The position numbers and the translations under genes are program-made. A model generated the notes under the pieces. That model made no database searches. It had not been told where the DNA came from and worked only from the letters and a program-made list of their open reading frames with translations. A stretch of 64,000 bases of DNA from Dehalococcoidia bacterium (lineage in GTDB: Bacteria > Chloroflexota > Dehalococcoidia > Lucifugimonadales > Australimonadaceae): the NCBI GenBank assembly GCA_965247635.1, contig CBDFHJ010000010.1, positions 261,918 through 325,917 on the forward strand, written 5' to 3'. Positions 18,386 to 26,592 of the stretch are shown here, in pieces (within the stretch, counting starts at the first letter, position 1; every line of letters begins with the position of its first letter).

Positions 18386-18666
18386 AACCCGAAGCTCCGT
18401 GACAAAAAATCCCGTTCCACCTTGAGCTGCCCAATCTGTTGGTAGAGCTGGGCAGTGAGGACCTCTTGGTCCTTCTCCTGGCGTCCAGCACCATTTTCAA
18501 AGAGGTGCGGCGCCCCCTGAGTCAAGGCCTTCTTCCAGGCATGGATCTGGCTCGGGTGGACTTCAAACCGGCTGGCCAGCTCTGCAATGGTGTGCTCCCC
18601 CTGGAGCGCGGCCAAAGCCACTTTGGCCTTGAAGACTGGGCTGTGCTTCTTACGTGTTTGCTTCAT
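18382..18666 (-). CDS. IS-B OrfA
   Basis: 94-aa ORF ([37 protein letters not shown]). Confidence 0.8.
18403..18409 (-). promoter_or_regulatory. Candidate -1 frameshift heptamer T TTT TTG (IS-B)
   Basis: The minus strand reads GAT TTT TTG TCA in the orfA frame. Confidence 0.45.
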
Positions 18667-18805
18667 GTCCTGCTCCTTCTTTCCGTCCTATTTTAGGAGC
18701 GGGACTCTCTCTTAGCCACCTGTCCGAATTTTGGGGTCCACCTCACTGCGCCGGTCCCATTTCGGGTCAGACCCGACCCGAGAAGGCCCGGGAAAGATTA
18801 TCGCA

Positions 18806-19211
18806 GTCCCAATTAGAAGTAAGCAAAGCAGAGGCCGCCGAGGAACGAAGCGAGCAGACCAGGTCTTTCGTCCGCACAGTGAAGGCGGCTGCCCGACGTA
18901 AGTACACCCCCGAAGAGAAGATCCGAATTGTTCTGGAGGGCTTCCGCCGCGAGGTCACAGTCAACGACCTGTGCCGGCGGGAGGGGATCAAGCCCCACTC
19001 CTACTACTCGTGGACCAAAGAGTTCATGGAGGCGGGCAAGGAGAGGTTGACCCGTGACTCGGTTCGGGACGCCACTCAGCATGAGGTAGGGCAACTCAAG
19101 CGAGAGAACGGGGAACTCAAGGAGCTAGTGGCCGATCTGTCGCTGGAGGCGTACCGTCTCAAAAAAACGGTCATCCCCATGCCCCAGGACGCCACCGGTA
19201 CCAGCGGATGA
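18806..19211 (+). pseudogene. IS-A OrfA with native GTG start destroyed
   Basis: gatGTGtccc in other copies reads gcaGTccc here. The frame stays open upstream to an ATG at 18654 inside antisense IS-B sequence (ORF 18654..19211). Confidence 0.6.
19161..19167 (+). promoter_or_regulatory. A7 slippery run, candidate -1 frameshift site joining IS-A OrfA to OrfB
   Basis: CTC AAA AAA ACG in the orfA frame. The -1 frame is open from here to the orfB ATG at 19208 (..NGHPHAPGRHRYQRM). The orfA stop and orfB start also overlap as ATGA. Confidence 0.5.
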
Positions 19212-20194
19212 GCGCCCCGGAGAAGGCAGAGGTAGTTACCAAAGTATCCTCGTCTCCCCTCCCCAAGCGAAAGGTCCTCAGAGAGCTGGGCATCCCTAAG
19301 AGCACCTACTACCGGTGGCTCAGACGCCAAGACCAACAAGGACTTGAGGACCGACCAGGAGGCGATCAGCCACCATGGAACCGTCTTACTATTCAGGAAG
19401 AACGCTCAGTCCTGTTATCAGCCAGGGAGATGCCAGAGCTGAGCTGCCGTCAGCTGGCCGCGGGGATCACCGACAACCAGGGCTTCTCAGTCTCAGAGTC
19501 CAGCGTCTACCGTATCCTGGGCAGGGAGGGCCTAGTGAAGAGGCCTGAGATGCGGTTGGCCGCGGGGAAGGAGTACCACCTCAAGACCACAGGACCTCAC
19601 CAGATGTGGGCCACCGATGCCTCATACTTCAGGGTGGTTGGGTGGGGCTACTACTACCTGGTCACCGTTATGGACGACTACTCCCGCTTCATCCTGGCTC
19701 ACAGGCTTCAGCAAGATATGACGGCCGACTCCTTCATCGAGGTGGTCCAGGATGCTGTGGACACGACCAGCATGGACCAAGTTCCAGTCACAGACCGCAC
19801 CAGGCTGCTGAGTGACAACGGTCCAGGCTATGTCTCAAGAGCATTCAGGGACTACCTGGGGATGGTTGGCATCAAGCACATCCTAGCAACTCCTTTCCAC
19901 CCTCAGACCAACGGGAAGCTGGAGCGCTACCACCAGACCATCAAACGGGACGTCAACCAGGTGCCTTATGAGTTGCCCGCCGACCTTGAGGCTGCTATCG
20001 CGGCCTTCGTCAGCTACTACAACTACCGGCGCTATCACAAGGCTCTGGGCAACGTGACACCATCAGACGTGCTCAAGGGAAGACGGCAAGAGATCCTACA
20101 ACGCAGGAAGGAGGTGAAGGCTCAAACCACCGAACGGCGACGACGCTACAACAGGGCCCTCAGGGAGCTCGCCAGACCTCCATCCAGCCCCTGA
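19208..20194 (+). CDS. IS-A OrfB transposase, intact
   Basis: 328-aa ORF with the motifs MWATDASYF, LLSDNGPGYVS and HPQTNGKLERYHQTIK. Confidence 0.9.
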   Translation: MSAPEKAEVVTKVSSSPLPKRKVLRELGIPKSTYYRWLRRQDQQGLEDRPGGDQPPWNRLTIQEERSVLLSAREMPELSCRQLAAGITDNQGFSVSESSVYRILGREGLVKRPEMRLAAGKEYHLKTTGPHQMWATDASYFRVVGWGYYYLVTVMDDYSRFILAHRLQQDMTADSFIEVVQDAVDTTSMDQVPVTDRTRLLSDNGPGYVSRAFRDYLGMVGIKHILATPFHPQTNGKLERYHQTIKRDVNQVPYELPADLEAAIAAFVSYYNYRRYHKALGNVTPSDVLKGRRQEILQRRKEVKAQTTERRRRYNRALRELARPPSSP

Positions 20195-20237
20195 TCTCTC
20201 GGCTCCCAATGTGTCCCACTTTTGCTGGTTGCTAACA

Positions 20238-20729
20238 ATTCTATTGGTCGCCATGCGGTCGGTCCGCTACGCAGTCGTCACGCTGATCCCGGTTGGGCTG
20301 GTCGTGGCCTGGCTGTACGGTATCATGTACGCGGCGGGGTTCTCGCTCAACTTCGTCACCGCCACCATCGGCGCGATCTCGATCGGCGTGGGCATCGACT
20401 TCTCCATTCACATGACCGAACGCTTCCGAGAAGAGCTAGCGCGGTCACCAGGCAACACGCAGGCGCTGACGAGGGCGCTGGGTGGCACTGGCATGGCCCT
20501 GATTGCGTCTGCCGGATCGAGCATCGTGGGCTTCCTCATCATGAGCATGGCACCAATGCCACCCTTCGCCGCCTATGGGCTCTTGACGGCCGTGATGATA
20601 CTGTTGGCACTCATGGCCTCGGTCATCGTGCTTCCGTCGCTGCTGATCCTGGTGACTCCGGATTTGAAACCTGAGGCGGCTGCGGAGGTAGTTGGAGAAC
20701 GGCTGCAGAGGCTCAACGACAAAGCATGA
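20238..20729 (+). pseudogene. MMPL/RND-superfamily transporter, C-terminal fragment (5' part removed by IS-A copy 3)
   Basis: The frame starts at the IS end. It reads ..RSVRYAVVTLIPVGLVVAWLYGIMYAAGFSLNFVTATIGAISIGVGIDFSIHM.., typical of the second MMPL transmembrane domain. Confidence 0.7.
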
Positions 20730-20819: not shown

Positions 20820-20827
20820 GACCCTTC
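20820..20827. repeat. 8-bp target-site duplication (left) of the IS1-family transposon
   Basis: gacccttc lies immediately outside the left inverted repeat. An identical octamer is at 23771..23778. Confidence 0.85.
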
Positions 20828-20836
20828 GGTAGTGTA

Positions 20837-21691
20837 TCAATTTGAACGGTCAAGTAATCCAAGTAGGTCTTCGATTGTCCAGATTCGATCAGTTAGGCCA
20901 GCGGCCATCGCGGGACTCCGGTGATAGGGGTTCGCAAGGCTCTTGTGAGGTCGGCAGAAGTTGTAGTGTACAAAGTACAGGGCCAGAGCATAAGTGTGAT
21001 TCTCTAGCTTCTTGCTAAAGGCGTTGGTTAGCCGAGTGAACCGCCGCATCGACATTCGCATCGTCAGGTTGTGGCGCTCGACGTAGCTGGTAGAGATGTG
21101 GCCCGCATTTGGATCGCCTTGGATCACTTGGGCCTCAGTGCCCACACACTCGGCAGGACTGTAACGCCGCCTAGCTTCGCGTTCAGGCTCGGTTGAACCG
21201 TACAGCTTGACTAGCATCGCGTAGTCGATATCTGAGCCAAAAGCCCCGTCCACAGCCTCTAGGTATGCCCTGTGTCCGTCCGTCGTAAGCTGGACACGGT
21301 TGCTCAGCCGTGCCGATAAGTCCCTCACGAACGTCCAAGCATCTCGACCGCTCCGACCGCCGACGTGCCAGCACGGAACGAGCTTCGTGTCGGCGTCTAT
21401 GGCCGTCCACGTCCACACGTCGCCGAAACCAAACTCGCCTTGATGTTCAACGGGTACATTCTTGGCCTTGCTGTAAACGAAGCTCCAGATTTCATCGCAC
21501 TGAAGCCGTTTGCACTGTAGGCCGTGCATTACCTCGTCATGGTAGTCCAGACACGCTGAGCCAAGCTCAGTCAGGAGCTTCACGACCGTGTTGACGGCGG
21601 TTCCAGTCATACGAGCCGTGCTACGAATGGAGTTTCCCTCACAAAGTGCATTAACGATCTGGACCTGGCGTTCGCGCTTTAGCCTATTCAT
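20837..21691 (-). CDS. IS1-family transposase (single-ORF type)
   Basis: 284-aa ORF with the motifs [57 protein letters not shown] and [10 protein letters not shown]. Confidence 0.85.
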
Positions 21692-21744
21692 AATGACTAT
21701 ATTATACTTAACCGATCATGTTTTATCAAGGTACTACTGAAGTC

Positions 21745-21766
21745 AGTTTGCATTTATGCGCAAACT
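21745..21766. promoter_or_regulatory. Palindromic candidate operator in the divergent promoter region
   Basis: AGTTTGC-atttatgc-GCAAACT in the AT-rich 91-bp spacer between the transposase and the HTH gene. It overlaps a TTGCAT -35-like hexamer. Confidence 0.35.
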
Positions 21767-21782
21767 TTAATACTCTTCGCTC

Positions 21783-22928
21783 ATGGAATATACACAATCG
21801 GACCACCGAACGCCAGGGCAACTCTTGGAGGATTTGTTGGAGGAACGAGGTTGGAGCAAGAGAGTATTGGCAGTTGTACTCGGAGTAGACGAGACTGGAG
21901 TCAACCGACTTGTCTCAGACAAGCGCCAGGTCACCGCTGAGATGGCCCTCGCCCTGGAGGAGGTGTTTGAGGTCCCCGCTGAGCGATTCCTCGAACTCCA
22001 GAAGTCTTACGACCTAGCCAAGGCACGGATTTCCGCCAGGCCAGACCCGCGAAGGAACACTCGCGCACAGCTCTTTAGCGGCCTCCCAGTCGGGGAGATG
22101 ATCAAGCGCGGTTGGATTGACGCTTCAGACGTTCGCGATGTCCCCGCTGTCGAGGCAGCTCTTGCGAAGTTCTTCGGCGTTCCGTCGCCGGACGAGATAG
22201 AGATACTGCCCCACGCCGCCAAGAAGACAATGGTGAGTACGGAGGTAACGCCCGTCCAGCTAGCTTGGTTGTATCGAGTCAAAGAGATTGCTAGCGAGAT
22301 GATGGTTGCCCGTTATTCTCGTCGGGCTGTCCGTGCTGCCGTTCCGAAACTCAGCGCCCTGCTCGCAGTTCGCGAGGAAGCTAGGAAGGTCCCGAGGATT
22401 CTGGCCGAGAGCGGTATTCGCTTTGTCATTGTAGAGTCGTTGTCGTCAGCGAAAATAGATGGTGTTTGCTTCTGGCTCGATGACACTTCACCAGTTATCG
22501 GGATGTCTCTGCGATATGACCGAATTGACAACTTTTGGTTTGTCCTCCGCCACGAGCTTGAACATGTCCTACGTCTTGATGGACGATCGGCCATGATTCT
22601 TGATGCTGAACTTGAGGGGGATAGGGCTGGAATAGGTCCCGATCTCTCTGAAGAGGAACGGGCAGCCAACCAAGAGGCTGCGGAATTCTGCGTGCCCCGT
22701 GATCCGCTAGAGAATTTCATGGCTCGTAAGTCCCCATTTTTCGCCGAGCGGGACATCTTGGGTTTTGCCCGCACCATGAATATCCATCCGGGACTGATCG
22801 CCGGCCAGCTCCAGCATAATACCAACAGGTATGACAGATGGCGCAAGCACTTGGCGAAGATCAGGTCTGTGGTAACACCGAGTGCGATGGTAGACGGCTG
22901 GGGCGATGTCGCTCCAGTCGGACTCTAA
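21783..22928 (+). CDS. HigA/XRE-type HTH fused to an ImmA/IrrE (M78) zinc metallopeptidase domain
   Basis: 381-aa ORF. The N-terminus (WSKRVLAVVLGVDETGVNRLVSDKRQVTAEMALALEEVFEVPAERFLELQKSYDL) is HigA-like. HELEHV (an HExxH motif) lies in the C-terminal half. Confidence 0.75.
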   Translation: MEYTQSDHRTPGQLLEDLLEERGWSKRVLAVVLGVDETGVNRLVSDKRQVTAEMALALEEVFEVPAERFLELQKSYDLAKARISARPDPRRNTRAQLFSGLPVGEMIKRGWIDASDVRDVPAVEAALAKFFGVPSPDEIEILPHAAKKTMVSTEVTPVQLAWLYRVKEIASEMMVARYSRRAVRAAVPKLSALLAVREEARKVPRILAESGIRFVIVESLSSAKIDGVCFWLDDTSPVIGMSLRYDRIDNFWFVLRHELEHVLRLDGRSAMILDAELEGDRAGIGPDLSEEERAANQEAAEFCVPRDPLENFMARKSPFFAERDILGFARTMNIHPGLIAGQLQHNTNRYDRWRKHLAKIRSVVTPSAMVDGWGDVAPVGL

Positions 22929-22943
22929 ATCAAGGAGGTTACA

Positions 22944-23435
22944 GTGGCAACGAAGAATCAGGAGAGGCAGCGCCTAATCCGGCTCTACAAGCAGGAGACG
23001 GGTGAGACAGAAGTAGACATGCACCAGGTTGCATCGTTTGCAACACGAGTGGGGTGGCCGCTTCCAAGGCCCACCAACCCCCTTGACCTTCTCGCTTCAC
23101 AGTTCTCCCAGGCTGCTAGGGAGGAAACCAAACGTGACGAACAGACTGGCAGACCATATCGCGTGAACCATGCGGTTCCCACGATGCAAACGGGGAGACA
23201 GCTATCCTACCTTTGGGTCGATATCGACGAGGCACCCCGTGGCCCAATGGTCAAGTCACTGATCGGCAGGCGTGAGCAAATGGTTGGCGACGCCTTGCAG
23301 TTGGACCTCGACGCCGAACATTGGAACAACATTCATCCTGAGGAACAACCGATCCAGCTTCCCTTGGATTTCACAGATGATGTTGAATGGAGAAAGAACG
23401 CGCCCGATGAGGAGGCTAGCGAGAAGGCTAGCTAG
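22944..23435 (+). CDS. Hypothetical 163-aa protein (passenger gene)
   Basis: GTG start 8 nt after an AAGGAGG SD and 16 nt after the upstream stop. No motif recognised. Confidence 0.55.
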   Translation: MATKNQERQRLIRLYKQETGETEVDMHQVASFATRVGWPLPRPTNPLDLLASQFSQAAREETKRDEQTGRPYRVNHAVPTMQTGRQLSYLWVDIDEAPRGPMVKSLIGRREQMVGDALQLDLDAEHWNNIHPEEQPIQLPLDFTDDVEWRKNAPDEEASEKAS

Positions 23436-23715
23436 GTGAACTTCCCCACCTGGCTGCCGCCGCCTTCCGAGCAATCTCGCTACGCCGTTCCGGTGTGAGC
23501 TTTGCGGCCCTAGCTTTGCCACCCTTCTTCCCGCCCAGGCGGCCTAGAGCGACGGCGGCGGGGTCCTTTCCCTGCAGGTCTTCCTGTTGATCGACTTCCT
23601 CTCCAGCCCTCTCGGGTTGGGGAGGAACATCTTGGTCAGTGGCTTCTTGCACAACGCGGAACGCAGTCACCGCGAAGTCGTGGTCGTCCTTCTTCTTGCT
23701 TGAGCGCTTAGCCAT
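23428..23715 (-). CDS. Small basic protein with KGGKARAAKLTPERRSEIARKAAAARW tail
   Basis: 95-aa ORF. The C-terminal motif is common in small phage- and plasmid-associated proteins. Confidence 0.5.
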   Translation of the reverse strand: MAKRSSKKKDDHDFAVTAFRVVQEATDQDVPPQPERAGEEVDQQEDLQGKDPAAVALGRLGGKKGGKARAAKLTPERRSEIARKAAAARWGSSPS

Positions 23716-23770
23716 ACTCCAAGGCTAGCACTGTCACCCCATCCCGTCAAATTCAAATTGATACACTACC

Positions 23771-23778
23771 GACCCTTC
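23771..23778. repeat. 8-bp target-site duplication (right) of the IS1-family transposon
   Basis: gacccttc, identical to 20820..20827. Confidence 0.85.
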
Positions 23779-24310: not shown

Positions 24311-24700
24311 TCAGACAACCTTGGAGAACACGTACACCTCGATTCCATTGGGGTCAACCAGCCGAAAGCTACGATGTCCCCATTCCTGGTCCGTCAACTC
24401 CTCCTTGATAGGAAGCCCCTTGTCCAGAACACGCCCGTACCAGGCGTCTACGTTATCAGTCTCGATAACTATCCAGGCACCTTGCGGCTGCCGGTAGTCC
24501 CACACCAAGTCGGGCGCTTGCTGCCGCGGTAGCTTTAGCACCTCGATCAGCCCAGATGCGGCACGGAATAGGGTCCCTTGGTCATCTGGCCCGTGGTCCC
24601 AGGACTCTACGACAGGCAGCTCCAACCCGTCCCGGTAGTAGGCCGTAGTGCTATCGTAGTCGCTAGCGTGAAAAGCGAAACGAAACTCACCACTCACCAT
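24311..24700 (-). CDS. VOC (glyoxalase/bleomycin-resistance) family protein
   Basis: 129 aa from the internal ATG at 24700 (MVSGEFRFAFHASDYDSTTAYYRDGLELPV..HRSFRLVDPNGIEVYVF). The longer ORF up to 24934 looks like a non-coding extension. Confidence 0.7.
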   Translation of the reverse strand: MVSGEFRFAFHASDYDSTTAYYRDGLELPVVESWDHGPDDQGTLFRAASGLIEVLKLPRQQAPDLVWDYRQPQGAWIVIETDNVDAWYGRVLDKGLPIKEELTDQEWGHRSFRLVDPNGIEVYVFSKVV

Positions 24701-24892
24701 GGTTGCGTTGCTCCTTAGGACGGTGTGGCTTTCAACATCTACTGACTCTACGCCACTAAGCAACACCCGTCTCGGAGCAGCCTTCTTTGTGATCCGTGCC
24801 CACGGCGCACCCGAACGGCTTGTCAAAGGCCCTCCCAAGGCCCAAACTCGGAGAGTAAGTCCAGCCTGGCCTGACAAGCCTGGGAGACCTCC

Positions 24893-24985
24893 ATGCGCTG
24901 TCTGATCTGCGGCCACGCCATGGTATCCATCCACTGCAAGCTGCTATGCCACAACTGCGGCTACACCATCGACTGTAGTGACTGA
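24893..24985 (+). CDS. 30-aa cysteine-rich micro-ORF (zinc-ribbon-like)
   Basis: MRCLICGHAMVSIHCKLLCHNCGYTIDCSD, with a GGGAGA SD 5 nt upstream. It is below the ORF-track size cutoff. Confidence 0.3.
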   Translation: MRCLICGHAMVSIHCKLLCHNCGYTIDCSD

Positions 24986-25011: not shown

Positions 25012-25920
25012 ATGAAGGTGCTTGTCACCGGGGCTACCGGGTTCATCGGCCGCGCCTTGTGCCAACGGCTGCGGGACGCCGGTCACGGCGTGGTAGCGCT
25101 CTCGCGCGACCCCGCCGCGGCCCAACGCCGCCTGCCGGAGCTAGACCAAGCCTTCCCGTGGTCGCCGCTCACCTCCGAGCCATCGCCCGAGGCGTTCGCG
25201 GGTGTCGAGGCGGTGGTACACCTGGCCGGCGAACGCATCCACGGCCGCTGGACCGCTGCGAAAAAACGAGCGATTCTCGACAGCCGCGTCCTCGGCACCC
25301 GAAACCTGGTGGCGGGTATCGGACGGCTGGAGAACAGGCCCGCGGTGCTGGTTTCCACCAGTGCAATCGGCTGGTACGGCGACCGGGGCGACGACCCGTT
25401 GACCGAAGAGGAGCCCGCAGGCCTCGACTTCCTGGCTGGCGTCTGCCGGCAGTGGGAGGCGGAGGCCACCCGCGCCGAGGACGTGGGCGTTCGCGTGGTT
25501 CGGCTGCGCAACGGGTTCGTGCTCGGCCGGGGCGGTGGGTTCCTCGTCCCGCAGCTCCCCCTTTACCGGCTGGGGCTGGGCGGCCCCCTGGGGTCGGGCC
25601 GGCAGTGGTGGTCGTGGATACACGTCGCCGACATCACCCGCCTGATTATTGCGCTCCTGGAGCAGCCGGTCAGCGGAGCGGTCAACGCCGCAGCGCCGAC
25701 ACCGGTGCGCCAGCGGGAGTTCGCCGCTACCCTGGGCCGCGTGCTCAGGCGTCCGGCGTTCCTCCCCGCGCCACGCCTCGCGCTGCGGCTGGTGCTGGGA
25801 GAGTTCTCGGGAGAGGTGTTGACGAGTAGACGGGTCCTGCCGCACCGGGCCCAGGAGCTGGGGTTCCGTTTCGACTTTCCCGAGCTGGAGCCCGCCATGC
25901 GGGACGCGCTCGGGCGATAG
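25012..25920 (+). CDS. TIGR01777/YfcH-type NAD-dependent epimerase-like protein (DUF1731 C-terminus)
   Basis: 302-aa ORF with VLVTGATGFIGRAL Rossmann motif. The overall pattern is that of the SDR-like YfcH family. Confidence 0.75.
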   Translation: MKVLVTGATGFIGRALCQRLRDAGHGVVALSRDPAAAQRRLPELDQAFPWSPLTSEPSPEAFAGVEAVVHLAGERIHGRWTAAKKRAILDSRVLGTRNLVAGIGRLENRPAVLVSTSAIGWYGDRGDDPLTEEEPAGLDFLAGVCRQWEAEATRAEDVGVRVVRLRNGFVLGRGGGFLVPQLPLYRLGLGGPLGSGRQWWSWIHVADITRLIIALLEQPVSGAVNAAAPTPVRQREFAATLGRVLRRPAFLPAPRLALRLVLGEFSGEVLTSRRVLPHRAQELGFRFDFPELEPAMRDALGR

Positions 25921-26516: not shown

Positions 26517-26592
26517 GGGCGGATAGCTCAGTGGTGAGAGCACCTGCTTTACACGCAGGGGGTCGCAGGTTCGAGTCCTGCTCCGCCCACCA
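26517..26592 (+). tRNA. tRNA-Val: tRNA-Val (anticodon TAC), CCA encoded
   Basis: Cloverleaf folded by hand: acceptor GGGCGGA/TCCGCCC, D arm GCTC..GAGC, anticodon stem CCTGC/GCAGG with loop TTTACAC, T arm GCAGG-TTCGAGT-CCTGC, then discriminator A and CCA. Confidence 0.9.

What the first reader, a model, noticed from the sequence alone, without database searches (positions are those of the whole stretch)
20820..23778. IS1-family element that transposed as a 2.9-kb unit with three passenger genes
Perfect 19-bp inverted repeats at 20828..20846 and 23752..23770 are flanked by an exact 8-bp direct repeat, gacccttc. This is the hallmark of one transposition event, and IS1-family elements make 8-9 bp duplications.

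Only about 0.9 kb encodes the transposase. The remainder carries three genes. The first is a HigA-like HTH fused to an ImmA/IrrE HExxH metallopeptidase. The second is a tightly linked unknown 163-aa gene, and the third is a convergent small basic protein with a KGGKARAxKLTPERRSEIARKAAxARW tail.

XRE/ImmA-type sensor-protease modules next to unknown effectors are typical of toxin-antitoxin-like or phage-defence cassettes. An IS1 vehicle for one would be an unusual passenger-carrying IS.
Basis: partly seen in the sequence, partly recalled or inferred. Interest (0 to 1): 0.7.

Follow-up and report, generated by a model that had tools for sequence, protein, structure and literature searches.

The report
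IS1-like transposon carrying a toxin-antitoxin-like cassette
A 2.9-kb jumping gene related to IS1 moves as one piece together with a two-gene toxin-antitoxin/defence-like cassette, and it belongs to a large, phylum-spanning family of such elements that ferry different small defence or addiction genes in the same internal slot.

Summary
Perfect 19-bp inverted repeats (20828-20846, 23752-23770) and an 8-bp duplication (gacccttc) bound a 2943-bp element.

It moves as one unit. Other metagenome contigs hold 99%-identical copies that end exactly at the repeats. They lie at three further sites with different perfect 8-bp duplications, and at a fifth site with an imperfect one.

The transposase is a distant, single-ORF IS1-family enzyme. 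Its DDE triad aligns with InsB, its ends read GGTAGTG, and it makes 8-bp duplications.

This is not a one-off capture. In 44 of 80 species genomes that hold the 163-aa gene, the same four genes and repeats recur across many phyla.

The small basic 95-aa protein is not a passenger. It is a core gene of this IS lineage and sits directly upstream of the transposase when the slot is empty.

The true cargo is the HigA-HTH/ImmA-peptidase protein, a homologue of PD-lambda-2 component B, plus the 163-aa protein, which has no family or fold match. Close relatives carry HigBA, PIN, Fic or restriction-modification genes in the same slot.

The cargo is therefore most likely a toxin-antitoxin or defence-type module. 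Its biochemistry is inferred, not shown.

The parts
20820..20827 (.). left copy of the 8-bp target-site duplication (gacccttc)
   Evidence: Read directly. It is identical to 23771-23778. Other copies of the element carry other 8-bp duplications.
20828..20846 (+). left terminal inverted repeat GGTAGTGTATCAATTTGAA
   Evidence: Homology to five other copies starts exactly here. The family consensus is GGTAGTG(G/T)(G/C)TCAGTTTGAA.
20837..21691 (-). transposase, 284 aa, single ORF, distant IS1 family; the stop codon lies inside the left repeat
   Evidence: Pfam DDE_Tnp_IS1 scores 29.8 bits against a cut-off of 24.1. NCBIfam transpos_IS1 gives E 1.8e-15 but falls below its cut-off. BLASTP to E. coli InsB and InsA. 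hhalign aligns D66/D138/E205 with the InsB DDE triad. Homologues are named IS1 family transposase by NCBI.
21701..21729 (-). promoter-like site for the transposase (TTGATA-17-TATAAT, 11 of 12)
   Evidence: The -10 element ends 9 nt before the ATG. The -35 region (GTCAAGCATAA on the + strand in relatives) is conserved in transposase-bearing loci only. This is a consensus match, not shown to function.
21745..21766 (.). palindrome AGTTTGC-N8-GCAAACT, putative operator of the HTH-peptidase protein
   Evidence: The same palindrome (CAGTTTGCG.TTTTGCGCAAACTG) lies 20-45 bp upstream of the homologous gene in loci of many phyla, with or without the transposase. Binding is inferred.
21783..22928 (+). 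HTX: HigA-like XRE helix-turn-helix fused to an ImmA/IrrE (M78) HExxH metallopeptidase, 381 aa; cargo gene 1
   Evidence: Pfam HTH_3 and Peptidase_M78. TIGR02607 HigA at 61 bits. PADLOC PD-Lambda-2_B at E 2.2e-45, nearly full length. PDB HigA antitoxins match residues 6-86. H257, E258, H261, E292 and N296 are conserved in at least 97% of 74 homologues.
22944..23435 (+). p163: 163-aa acidic protein of unknown fold, 15 bp after HTX with an AAGGAGG ribosome-binding site; cargo gene 2
   Evidence: No Pfam, NCBIfam, PADLOC or PHROG match. There are 644 homologues at 60-78% identity in many phyla, with 24 invariant residues. The AlphaFold model has pLDDT 86 and no fold match in PDB or BFVD. The gene lies directly downstream of an HTX gene in nearly all loci.
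23428..23715 (-). p95: small basic protein (pI 9.6), core gene of this IS lineage, same strand as the transposase, starts 36 bp inside the right repeat
   Evidence: At least 7778 homologues, all unnamed. In genomes it is found only where the transposase and repeats are present. It is kept next to the repeat in elements with other cargo. It lies directly upstream of the transposase when the slot is empty (L123, L172). It shows no similarity to InsA.
23752..23770 (-). right terminal inverted repeat
   Evidence: Homology to other copies ends exactly here.
23771..23778 (.). right copy of the 8-bp target-site duplication (gacccttc)
   Evidence: Read directly.

Best explanation
Window 20828-23770 is an intact, recently active transporter insertion sequence (an IS that carries passenger genes) of a distant, single-ORF branch of the IS1 family.

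Shown:
- The 2943-bp unit, bounded by 19-bp inverted repeats, inserts as a whole and duplicates 8 bp of target.
- Its backbone is repeat - p95 - [slot] - transposase - repeat, with p95 and the transposase on one strand.
- The slot holds, on the other strand, a two-gene operon: HTX (HigA-type HTH plus ImmA/IrrE HExxH peptidase) and p163.
- The same four-gene layout recurs in dozens of species of many phyla.
- Sister elements with near-identical repeats carry HigB-HigA, an unknown protein plus PIN, Fic, NYN, HicB or aspartic-protease pairs in the same slot. They carry methylase, Mrr, GmrSD, HNH, MazF or Panacea genes after the transposase.
- HTX-p163 also occurs on its own in about 30 species, with the same upstream palindrome.

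Inferred:
- HTX-p163 is a self-contained, autoregulated toxin-antitoxin-like module of the addiction and/or abortive-infection type.
- HTX binds the conserved palindrome at 21745-21766 through its HigA-like domain and represses its own operon. The palindrome lies 15 bp from the transposase -35 element, so HTX may also influence transposase expression.
- The conserved, apparently active peptidase domain acts as the switch, as in ImmA/ImmR, IrrE/DdrO and CapP/CapH. It would act by cleaving itself or p163 on a stress or phage signal.
- p163 is the effector.
- The module pays for its ride by stabilising the element or its replicon, or by protecting the host from phage.
- p95 is a transposition-associated regulator or DNA-binding factor. 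It occupies the position that insA has in IS1 but is not homologous to InsA.
For: Unit mobility:
- The 2943-bp element occurs at 98.9-99.4% identity in L001, L002, L003 and L006, with truncated or interrupted copies in L004 and L005. All end exactly at the repeats.
- Four sites have distinct perfect 8-bp duplications.
- Across all fetched loci, 72 repeat-bounded elements of 1.8-6.4 kb have perfect 8-bp duplications.

IS1 relationship:
- Pfam PF03400 scores above its cut-off.
- The DDE triad aligns with InsB and the ERHNL...FSK motif matches. The N-terminal HTH resembles that of InsA.
- The termini are GGTAGTG here, against GGTAATG/GGTGATG in IS1A.

Family:
- Of 80 species loci, 44 have the transposase in the same divergent position, together with the repeats and p95.
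- Transposase and p163 divergence are correlated: Mantel r 0.42, with 0 of 2000 permutations reaching it.

Slot and cargo:
- L094 carries HigB plus HTH_3 in an 1835-bp element.
- L089 (Dehalogenimonas etheniformans) carries PIN plus a 307-aa protein, and a methyltransferase-Mrr fusion.
- Pfam census of 71 slot ORFs and 61 tail ORFs.
- The slot is empty in L123 and L172.

HTX:
- PD-Lambda-2_B at E 2e-45 and a HigA-like N-terminus.
- HExxH and the downstream E..AN..F motif are conserved in at least 97% of homologues.
- The operator-like palindrome is conserved across phyla.
- PD-lambda-2 is an experimentally shown abortive-infection, TA-like defence system (PMC9519451).

Analogy: TA pairs are embedded in the transposition module of Tn3-family transposons (PMC7157771).
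Against: - No toxicity, neutralisation, DNA-binding, cleavage or phage assay exists for HTX or p163. Which partner is toxic is unknown.
- p163 is acidic (pI 5.0). That is more typical of an antitoxin or inhibitor than of an RNA-targeting toxin.
- In PD-lambda-2 the HTX-like component B was itself toxic, and the neutraliser was a HigB-like protein that is absent here.
- p163 matches neither PD-Lambda-2_A nor C, so this is not a PD-lambda-2 system.
- The NCBIfam IS1 model scores below its cut-off (57 against 100 bits). hhalign probability to InsB is only 54%.
- Transposase and HTX divergence are not significantly correlated (r 0.14, 179 of 2000), so modules recombine between elements.
- No empty site was recovered for the window's own insertion.
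- The p95 model is of low confidence (pLDDT 63), and its role rests on position and co-occurrence only.
Confidence: 0.75

Rival explanations
1. The element is the same, but the roles within the cargo are reversed. HTX is the growth-inhibiting component, as PD-lambda-2 component B is, and the acidic p163 is its neutraliser, inhibitor or sensor rather than the effector.
For: [quoted passage not shown]
- p163 is acidic, with pI 5.0.
- HTX-like proteins pair with several unrelated downstream partners in other elements (L148).
Against: - HTX carries a HigA antitoxin-type DNA-binding domain and a conserved operator, the usual attributes of the antitoxin or regulator.
- p163 has 24 invariant, mostly polar or charged residues. 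That suits an enzyme better than a simple inhibitor.
- No HigB-like neutraliser is present, yet the pair is stable in hundreds of genomes.
Confidence: 0.3
2. HTX and p163 are not selfish or defence cargo. They are dedicated regulators of transposition: a stress-sensing switch that controls the neighbouring transposase promoter.
For: - The four genes stay together across phyla while the transposases have diverged to about 57% mean identity.
- The palindrome lies 15 bp from the transposase -35 element.
- ImmA-type peptidases control mobile-element induction elsewhere (established knowledge of ICEBs1 ImmR/ImmA).
Against: - HTX-p163 occurs without transposase, repeats or p95 in about 30 species, with the same operator.
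- Close relatives of the transposase (74-76% identical) transpose with HigBA, PIN or other modules instead, or with an empty slot. All of these have perfect 8-bp duplications.
Confidence: 0.1
3. All three non-transposase genes, including the 95-aa basic protein, are passengers.
For: - p95 has no recognisable transposition domain.
- It is not similar to InsA.
- It was not detected in 11 of 51 metagenome loci whose left end is present.
Against: - p95 homologues are as numerous as the transposase (at least 7778 against at least 8000 scored).
- p95 keeps the same place next to the repeat whatever the cargo.
- It is absent wherever HTX-p163 lacks the transposase.
- It abuts the transposase on the same strand when the slot is empty.
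Confidence: 0.1
4. The unit is an illusion: an ordinary 0.9-kb IS ends near 21750, and the repeat at 23752 is an unrelated solo end.
For: None was found. The only hint is that about 0.9 kb of the element would suffice for a transposase.
Against: - There is no third copy of the repeat in the window, even with 3 mismatches.
- Five other contigs carry the element with homology ending exactly at 20828 and 23770, and with their own duplications.
Confidence: 0.01

Closest known systems
IS1 (E. coli IS1A, insA/insB) and the IS1 family
   Same: - DDE transposase with the D, D, E residues and the ERHNL...FSK motif alignable to InsB.
- InsA-like HTH at the transposase N-terminus.
- Termini of the form GGTnnTG.
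- Target duplication of 8 bp. IS1 makes 8-9 bp (my knowledge).
- A small basic gene next to one repeat, reading inward and on the same strand as the transposase, as insA does.
   Different: - One uninterrupted 284-aa ORF with no frameshift and no InsA zinc finger.
- The small gene p95 is unrelated to InsA.
- The element is 2.9 kb rather than 768 bp, with a cargo slot between the small gene and the transposase.
- It scores below NCBIfam's IS1 cut-off.
Tn3-family transposons with embedded toxin-antitoxin pairs (Lima-Mendez et al. 2020, PMC7157771)
   Same: - Type II TA-like pairs sit inside the transposition module, next to the divergent promoter region, rather than among ordinary passengers.
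- Several different TA families were acquired independently and exchanged by recombination.
- The role proposed there is stabilisation of the transposon, possibly coupled to transposase expression.
   Different: - A different transposase superfamily and mechanism, with no resolvase or res site.
- The elements are far smaller (1.8-6.4 kb).
- The cargo here includes an HTH-peptidase/p163 pair that is not a recognised TA family.
PD-lambda-2 anti-phage system (Vassallo et al. 2022, PMC9519451)
   Same: HTX is a nearly full-length homologue of component B, the HigA-like HTH plus C-terminal peptidase (E 2.2e-45). PD-lambda-2 is TA-like and acts by abortive infection.
   Different: - PD-lambda-2 has three genes. 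Here there is no HigB-like component A upstream; the transposase is there instead.
- p163 does not match component C.
- The same holds for HTX-like genes in sister elements.
Transporter IS (tIS) as defined by ISfinder
   Same: An IS-type element with terminal repeats and one transposase that carries genes unrelated to transposition within its ends (concept as cited in PMC9330008).
   Different: - Here the cargo position is fixed. There is a slot between two core genes, plus a tail site.
- The cargo is systematically of TA, defence or restriction type.
- One cargo, HTX-p163, is conserved with the backbone across phyla.
- From memory, ISfinder lists an IS1 subgroup (ISMhu11) with lengths up to about 4.6 kb, so cargo-carrying IS1 relatives may already be catalogued. 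I could not check this: no paper in the library holds that name.
XRE repressor / ImmA-IrrE peptidase switches (ImmR-ImmA, DdrO-IrrE, CapH-CapP)
   Same: An XRE-type HTH together with an M78 HExxH peptidase carrying the conserved E..AN..F motif. There are weak PADLOC matches to CapH and CapP in HTX relatives.
   Different: - The two functions are fused in one polypeptide here.
- The substrate and the signal are unknown.
- The regulated gene is p163, not a CBASS operon, an ICE or a DNA-repair regulon.

Membership tests
IS1 family of insertion sequences | DDE transposase homologous to IS1 InsB | tested here: met
   Pfam PF03400 scores 29.8 bits against a cut-off of 24.1. BLASTP to InsB gives E 1e-6 over the ERHNL motif. 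hhalign covers 118 columns at 31% identity (E 1.2e-4), aligning D66/D138/E205. These residues are invariant in 26 homologues. The relationship is distant: NCBIfam gives 57 bits against a cut-off of 100.
IS1 family of insertion sequences | terminal inverted repeats beginning GGnnnTG | tested here: met
   GGTAGTG at both ends. IS1A has GGTAATG and GGTGATG. The motif is conserved throughout the family.
IS1 family of insertion sequences | target-site duplication of 8-9 bp | tested here: met
   The window has an 8-bp duplication. So do 72 repeat-bounded relatives.
IS1 family of insertion sequences | insA and insB frames joined by programmed -1 frameshifting (classical IS1) | tested here: not met
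   The transposase is a single 284-aa ORF. Only the HTH part of InsA is recognisable at its N-terminus, with no zinc finger. From memory, single-ORF subgroups are accepted within the family, so this separates the element from classical IS1, not from the family.
Transporter IS (tIS) | genes unrelated to transposition lie inside the repeats and move with the element | tested here: met
   Full-length copies at four sites have different duplications. The cargo is replaceable in relatives.
PD-lambda-2 defence system | component B: HigA-like HTH fused to a peptidase | tested here: met
   PADLOC PDLC03982 at E 2.2e-45, residues 19-362 against profile positions 68-394 of 402.
PD-lambda-2 defence system | component A: HigB-like protein encoded upstream | tested here: not met
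   The upstream gene is the divergent transposase. No conserved upstream neighbour exists in loci that lack the transposase.
PD-lambda-2 defence system | component C: protein related to a P4 antitoxin | tested here: not met
   p163 and p95 give no PADLOC match even at E up to 1. Neither matches Pfam SocA_Panacea or any other family.
Type II toxin-antitoxin module | two adjacent co-directional genes, one encoding a DNA-binding antitoxin-type protein | tested here: met
   HTX and p163 are 15 bp apart on one strand. HTX matches the HigA equivalog TIGR02607 at 61 bits against a cut-off of 47.7 and PDB HigA chains.
Type II toxin-antitoxin module | autoregulation through an operator in the promoter | tested here: inconclusive
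   A conserved palindrome lies 20-45 bp upstream of HTX genes in many phyla. Binding and repression have not been tested.
Type II toxin-antitoxin module | one product is toxic and is neutralised by the other | not testable with these tools
   This needs expression experiments. The only indirect support is that recognised toxins (HigB, PIN, Fic, NYN, Gp49) occupy the same slot in sister elements.

The most novel reading that the evidence does not exclude
The window element is one member of a so far undescribed, phylum-spanning superfamily of IS1-like 'slot' transposons. Their backbone is repeat - p95 - slot - transposase - tail - repeat, and they act as dedicated shuttles for small toxin-antitoxin, restriction and anti-phage genes. 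p95 would be a new class of transposition-associated protein. HTX-p163 would be a new two-component addiction or defence system whose effector, p163, has a fold without known relatives.
Probability: 0.45. Interest if true: 0.8.

Novelty: new variant of a known kind. Interest (0 to 1): 0.68.

Why it matters
Insertion sequences are usually treated as bare transposase genes that only interrupt host genes. A 2026 metagenome survey still handles them that way (PMC13323075).

Here a very abundant IS1-like lineage has fixed cargo positions:
- More than 8000 transposase relatives were scored.
- The JGI metagenome scan reached its 600-hit limit with 585 confirmed relatives.
- The cargo positions are filled almost entirely with toxin-antitoxin, restriction and defence-type genes.
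- Whole elements of 1.8-6.4 kb carry clean 8-bp duplications.

This would be a small, simple and widespread route by which addiction and defence genes move between replicons and phyla. It parallels what is known for Tn3 and Tn7 but occurs at IS scale.

It also gives three concrete objects for experiment:
- an HTH-peptidase relative of PD-lambda-2B with a new partner;
- a strongly conserved 163-aa protein with no known fold;
- a small basic protein tied to the transposase.

Tried and rejected
- **Empty site for the window's insertion.** Exact look-ups of three flanking proteins (20211-20729, 24311-24934(-), 25012-25920) found nothing on record. The transposase itself is also not on record.
- **Fold of p163.** The confident AlphaFold model (pLDDT 86) gave no significant match in PDB (best E 1.2) or BFVD (best E 0.2). 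Faint MarR/PadR-like rows have TM scores of about 0.13 and were disregarded.
- **p95.** There is no PDB sequence match beyond artificial repeat proteins. The model has low confidence, so no fold search was run. Homology to InsA was tested and rejected.
- **A HigB-like or other conserved third gene next to stand-alone HTX-p163.** All-against-all comparison of neighbours found none. The neighbour domain census is heterogeneous.
- **PD-lambda-2 A or C in sister elements that have an extra small upstream ORF (L098, L167).** No match.
- **Strict co-divergence of the four genes.** It is only partial. Transposase and HTX are not significantly correlated, and transposon-borne and stand-alone modules are interspersed in the p163 tree. 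A single ancient capture followed by pure vertical descent is therefore rejected.
- **Literature.** I found no paper in the library on IS1-family elements with TA or defence cargo, and none naming ISMhu11. The FEMS review I tried by PMC id is not held.
- **Terminal repeats of the neighbouring IS3-type element.** None was clear in a quick scan.


Full report
**1. The observation**

The sequence reads gacccttc | GGTAGTGTATCAATTTGAA ... TTCAAATTGATACACTACC | gacccttc. The repeats lie at 20828-20846 and 23752-23770, and the 8-bp direct repeats at 20820-20827 and 23771-23778. With up to three mismatches the 19-mer occurs only at these two places in the 64-kb window, against none expected from shuffles. 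The repeat finder extends the arms to 21 nt only because the adjoining duplication bases happen to be complementary. There is no internal repeat near 21750. The four ORFs are as described.

**2. The element moves as one unit**

The exact 163-aa protein is also encoded on a 35-kb metagenome contig (L001).
- BLASTN shows that L001:3884-6827 equals window 20828-23770 at 99.4% identity. Homology stops exactly at the repeats.
- That copy is flanked by a different 8-bp duplication, gcgaaaaa.

Close variants of the protein led to four more contigs.
- Full 2943-bp copies lie in L002 (aaagtttt), L003 (gagtaagc) and L006 (imperfect: ggaagccg/ggaagttt, beside an IS1595-type gene).
- L004 is the L002 site with a second IS inserted into the HTH-peptidase gene.
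- L005 is the L003 site on a short contig.

Together with the window this gives four independent insertions with perfect 8-bp duplications. The whole 2.9 kb therefore transposes. I could not recover an empty site for the window's own insertion.

**3. The transposase**

The 284-aa ORF passes Pfam DDE_Tnp_IS1 (29.8 bits against 24.1). It is below NCBIfam's IS1 cut-off (57 against 100 bits).

Comparison with E. coli IS1A:
- Residues 201-240 match InsB 122-161 across the ERHNL...FSK motif.
- Residues 11-44 match the InsA helix-turn-helix.
- A profile comparison aligns D66, D138 and E205 with the InsB catalytic residues. These are invariant in 26 homologues.
- IS1A ends read GGTAATG and GGTGATG. 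This element reads GGTAGTG.

NCBI names homologues 'IS1 family transposase', for example in Dehalogenimonas etheniformans. The transposase is thus a distant, single-ORF member of the IS1 family, without the InsA zinc finger or a frameshift.

A near-consensus promoter (TTGATA-17-TATAAT) lies just upstream of its start codon.

**4. A family, not a one-off**

The 163-aa protein has at least 644 homologues at 60-78% identity, from Chloroflexota, Acidobacteriota, Proteobacteria and others. None has a Pfam domain.

A scan of one genome per species found it in 110 species, and 80 loci were fetched.
- In nearly all of them an HTH-peptidase gene lies directly upstream.
- In 44 of 80 the IS1-like transposase (44-63% identical) lies divergently upstream at the same spacing.
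- The 95-aa protein is detected almost only in those loci.
- The repeat consensus GGTAGTG(G/T)(G/C)TCAGTTTGAA is found at both ends of these loci and in none of the transposase-less loci.

Transposon-borne and stand-alone modules are interspersed in a p163 tree. Divergences correlate only partly: transposase-p163 r 0.42, HTX-p163 r 0.48, transposase-HTX r 0.14. The parts have therefore travelled together for a long time, but they also recombine and are sometimes left behind.

**5. Backbone and cargo**

Close transposase relatives show what is constant.
- L088 (transposase 82% identical) has the same cargo and the same length.
- The Dehalogenimonas etheniformans element (L089, 4142 bp, duplication GAGGGGAA) keeps the repeats, the transposase (74%) and the 95-aa protein (65%). 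Between them it carries an unknown 307-aa protein plus a PIN-domain protein. After the transposase it carries a methyltransferase-Mrr fusion.
- L094 is an 1835-bp element with HigB and a HigA-type HTH in the slot.
- L093 has an 82-aa protein plus a 160-aa protein with a DTGA motif.

A metagenome scan with a transposase profile hit its 600-stretch limit, with 585 confirmed relatives. Of the 80 loci kept:
- 40 are complete, at 2083-6374 bp (median 2890 bp).
- The 95-aa protein is present in 40 of the 51 loci that have the relevant end.
- In L123 and L172 it lies 55-69 bp upstream of the transposase on the same strand, so the slot is empty.

The backbone is therefore repeat - p95 - slot - transposase - tail - repeat.

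Cargo census:

| Position | ORFs scanned | Pfam domains found (members) |
|---|---|---|
| Slot | 71 | HTH_3 (11), Peptidase_M78 (6), HigB (3), Fic (2), P63C (2), aspartic protease (2); one each of NYN, HicB, Gp49, PIN, HD; AAA/STAND NTPase domains |
| Tail | 61 | NYN (4), EcoRI methylase (2), GmrSD (2), HNH (2); one each of N6_N4 methylase, Mrr, Panacea, MazF; several proteases |

The cargo is overwhelmingly of toxin-antitoxin, restriction or defence type.

**6. The cargo in the window**

*HTX (381 aa).*
- It has a HigA-type HTH (TIGR02607 at 61 bits; PDB HigA chains).
- It has an M78 peptidase domain. Its HExxH motif and downstream E..AN..F motif are conserved in at least 97% of 74 homologues.
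- It matches the PADLOC model of PD-lambda-2 component B nearly end to end (E 2.2e-45).
- PD-lambda-2 is an experimentally validated, TA-like abortive-infection system. In it, B alone is toxic, the HigB-like A neutralises it, and C is needed for defence (PMC9519451). Neither A nor C is present here.

*Operator.* A palindrome, AGTTTGC-N8-GCAAACT (21745-21766), lies 17 bp upstream of the HTX start. The same palindrome is conserved upstream of HTX genes in many phyla, with or without the transposase. In transposon copies it sits next to the conserved -35 region of the transposase promoter.

*p163.*
- It follows HTX after 15 bp and has a strong ribosome-binding site.
- It is acidic (pI 5.0) and has 24 invariant residues.
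- Its model is confident (pLDDT 86) but has no detectable fold relative.

*Stand-alone modules.* These have no conserved neighbour. They sit in mixed contexts, some with DarT/Macro, TIR, integrase, resolvase or McrBC genes.

**7. Mechanism**

Shown: the unit structure, its mobility, the family, the replaceable slot and the domain content.

Inferred, in decreasing order of confidence:
- (a) HTX-p163 is a self-contained, autoregulated TA-like module carried as cargo.
- (b) HTX is the operator-binding regulator, and its peptidase is the switch.
- (c) p163 is the effector.
- (d) The module stabilises the element or its replicon, or aborts phage infection.
- (e) p95 is a transposition-associated factor in the position of insA. 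It is not homologous to InsA.

The main rival reverses the roles of HTX and p163. A weaker rival makes them regulators of transposition. That rival fits poorly with stand-alone modules and with sister elements that move with other cargo.

**8. Comparison and novelty**

The closest analogue in logic is the Tn3 family, where TA pairs are embedded in the transposition module (PMC7157771). A 2025 review of TA systems on mobile elements cites only that case for transposons (PMC12548467).

Transporter IS are a known concept (PMC9330008). From memory, ISfinder lists long members in an IS1 subgroup, so individual elements may already be catalogued. I found no paper describing IS1-type elements with TA or defence cargo, nor this four-gene family.

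I rate it a new variant of a known kind.

**9. Context**

- The element has lower G+C (0.554) than the window (0.597). Its divergent promoter region is 0.33.
- It lies about 100 bp downstream of an MMPL gene fragment. That fragment directly follows an IS3-type orfA/orfB pair.
- The closest relatives of the transposase and p95 are from Chloroflexota, mainly Dehalococcoidia. The host of the window is probably of that group, but this is not established.

Noticed in passing
window 18654-20729: An IS3-type pair of genes, orfA with HTH_Tnp_1 (18654-19211) and orfB with rve (19208-20194), is followed directly by a C-terminal MMPL fragment (20211-20729). The MMPL gene therefore seems to be interrupted by a second, unrelated IS. 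A quick scan found no clear terminal repeats.
   Followed up: partly
window 26517-26592: tRNA-Val (anticodon tac). It is the only Rfam or ARAGORN hit in the 64-kb window.
   Followed up: yes
L001 1-12492, especially 12-167: The second copy of the element sits in a phage- or plasmid-like stretch with HTH_36, IstB-like, DNA methylase, HNH and Vsr genes. At the edge of the locus a 156-bp piece matches the transposase/HTX intergenic region in reverse at 95.5%. That points to another, diverged or truncated copy upstream.
   Followed up: partly
L001 around 4349 (window position 21291): This copy has one extra G that splits the transposase into two frames. The contig name gives 2.75x coverage, so this may be an assembly error rather than a real inactivation.
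   Followed up: partly
L004 3030-4583: At the same insertion site as L002, the left part of the element (transposase and the first 234 codons of HTX) is replaced by an IS4/IS5-type transposase gene (DDE_Tnp_1). This is an IS inserted in, or recombined with, the element.
   Followed up: partly
L006 5791-6375: This is the only full copy without a perfect duplication (ggaagccg against ggaagttt). An IS1595-type transposase gene abuts its right end, so a later rearrangement is likely.
   Followed up: no
L030 2711-6807 and L031 3820-6807: There are two copies of a distant family member in one Vicinamibacteria genome, each with its own 8-bp duplication. One carries an extra 1.1 kb between the transposase and HTX.
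   Followed up: partly
L089 2545-6686 (Dehalogenimonas etheniformans CP058566.2): A 4142-bp sister element in a cultured organism's genome carries PIN plus a 307-aa unknown protein in the slot, and a methyltransferase fused to an Mrr nuclease domain after the transposase.
   Followed up: yes
L093 324-1041 and L097 912-1796: The slot cargo is a small protein plus a retropepsin-like aspartic protease (DTGA motif; in L097 with a C-terminal SEC-C motif). This is an unusual pairing in a position otherwise filled by TA modules.
   Followed up: no
L098 830-7203: This is the largest element seen (6374 bp, duplication AATTAGGC). Its slot holds a small ORF, an HTX-like gene and a p163-like gene (36% identical). 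Its tail holds EcoRI-type methylase fragments.
   Followed up: partly
window 21701-21691 and 21783: The transposase -10 element ends only 9 nt before its ATG, and no Shine-Dalgarno sequence precedes the transposase or HTX genes. Both may therefore be translated from leaderless mRNAs. p163, in contrast, has a strong AAGGAGG site.
   Followed up: no
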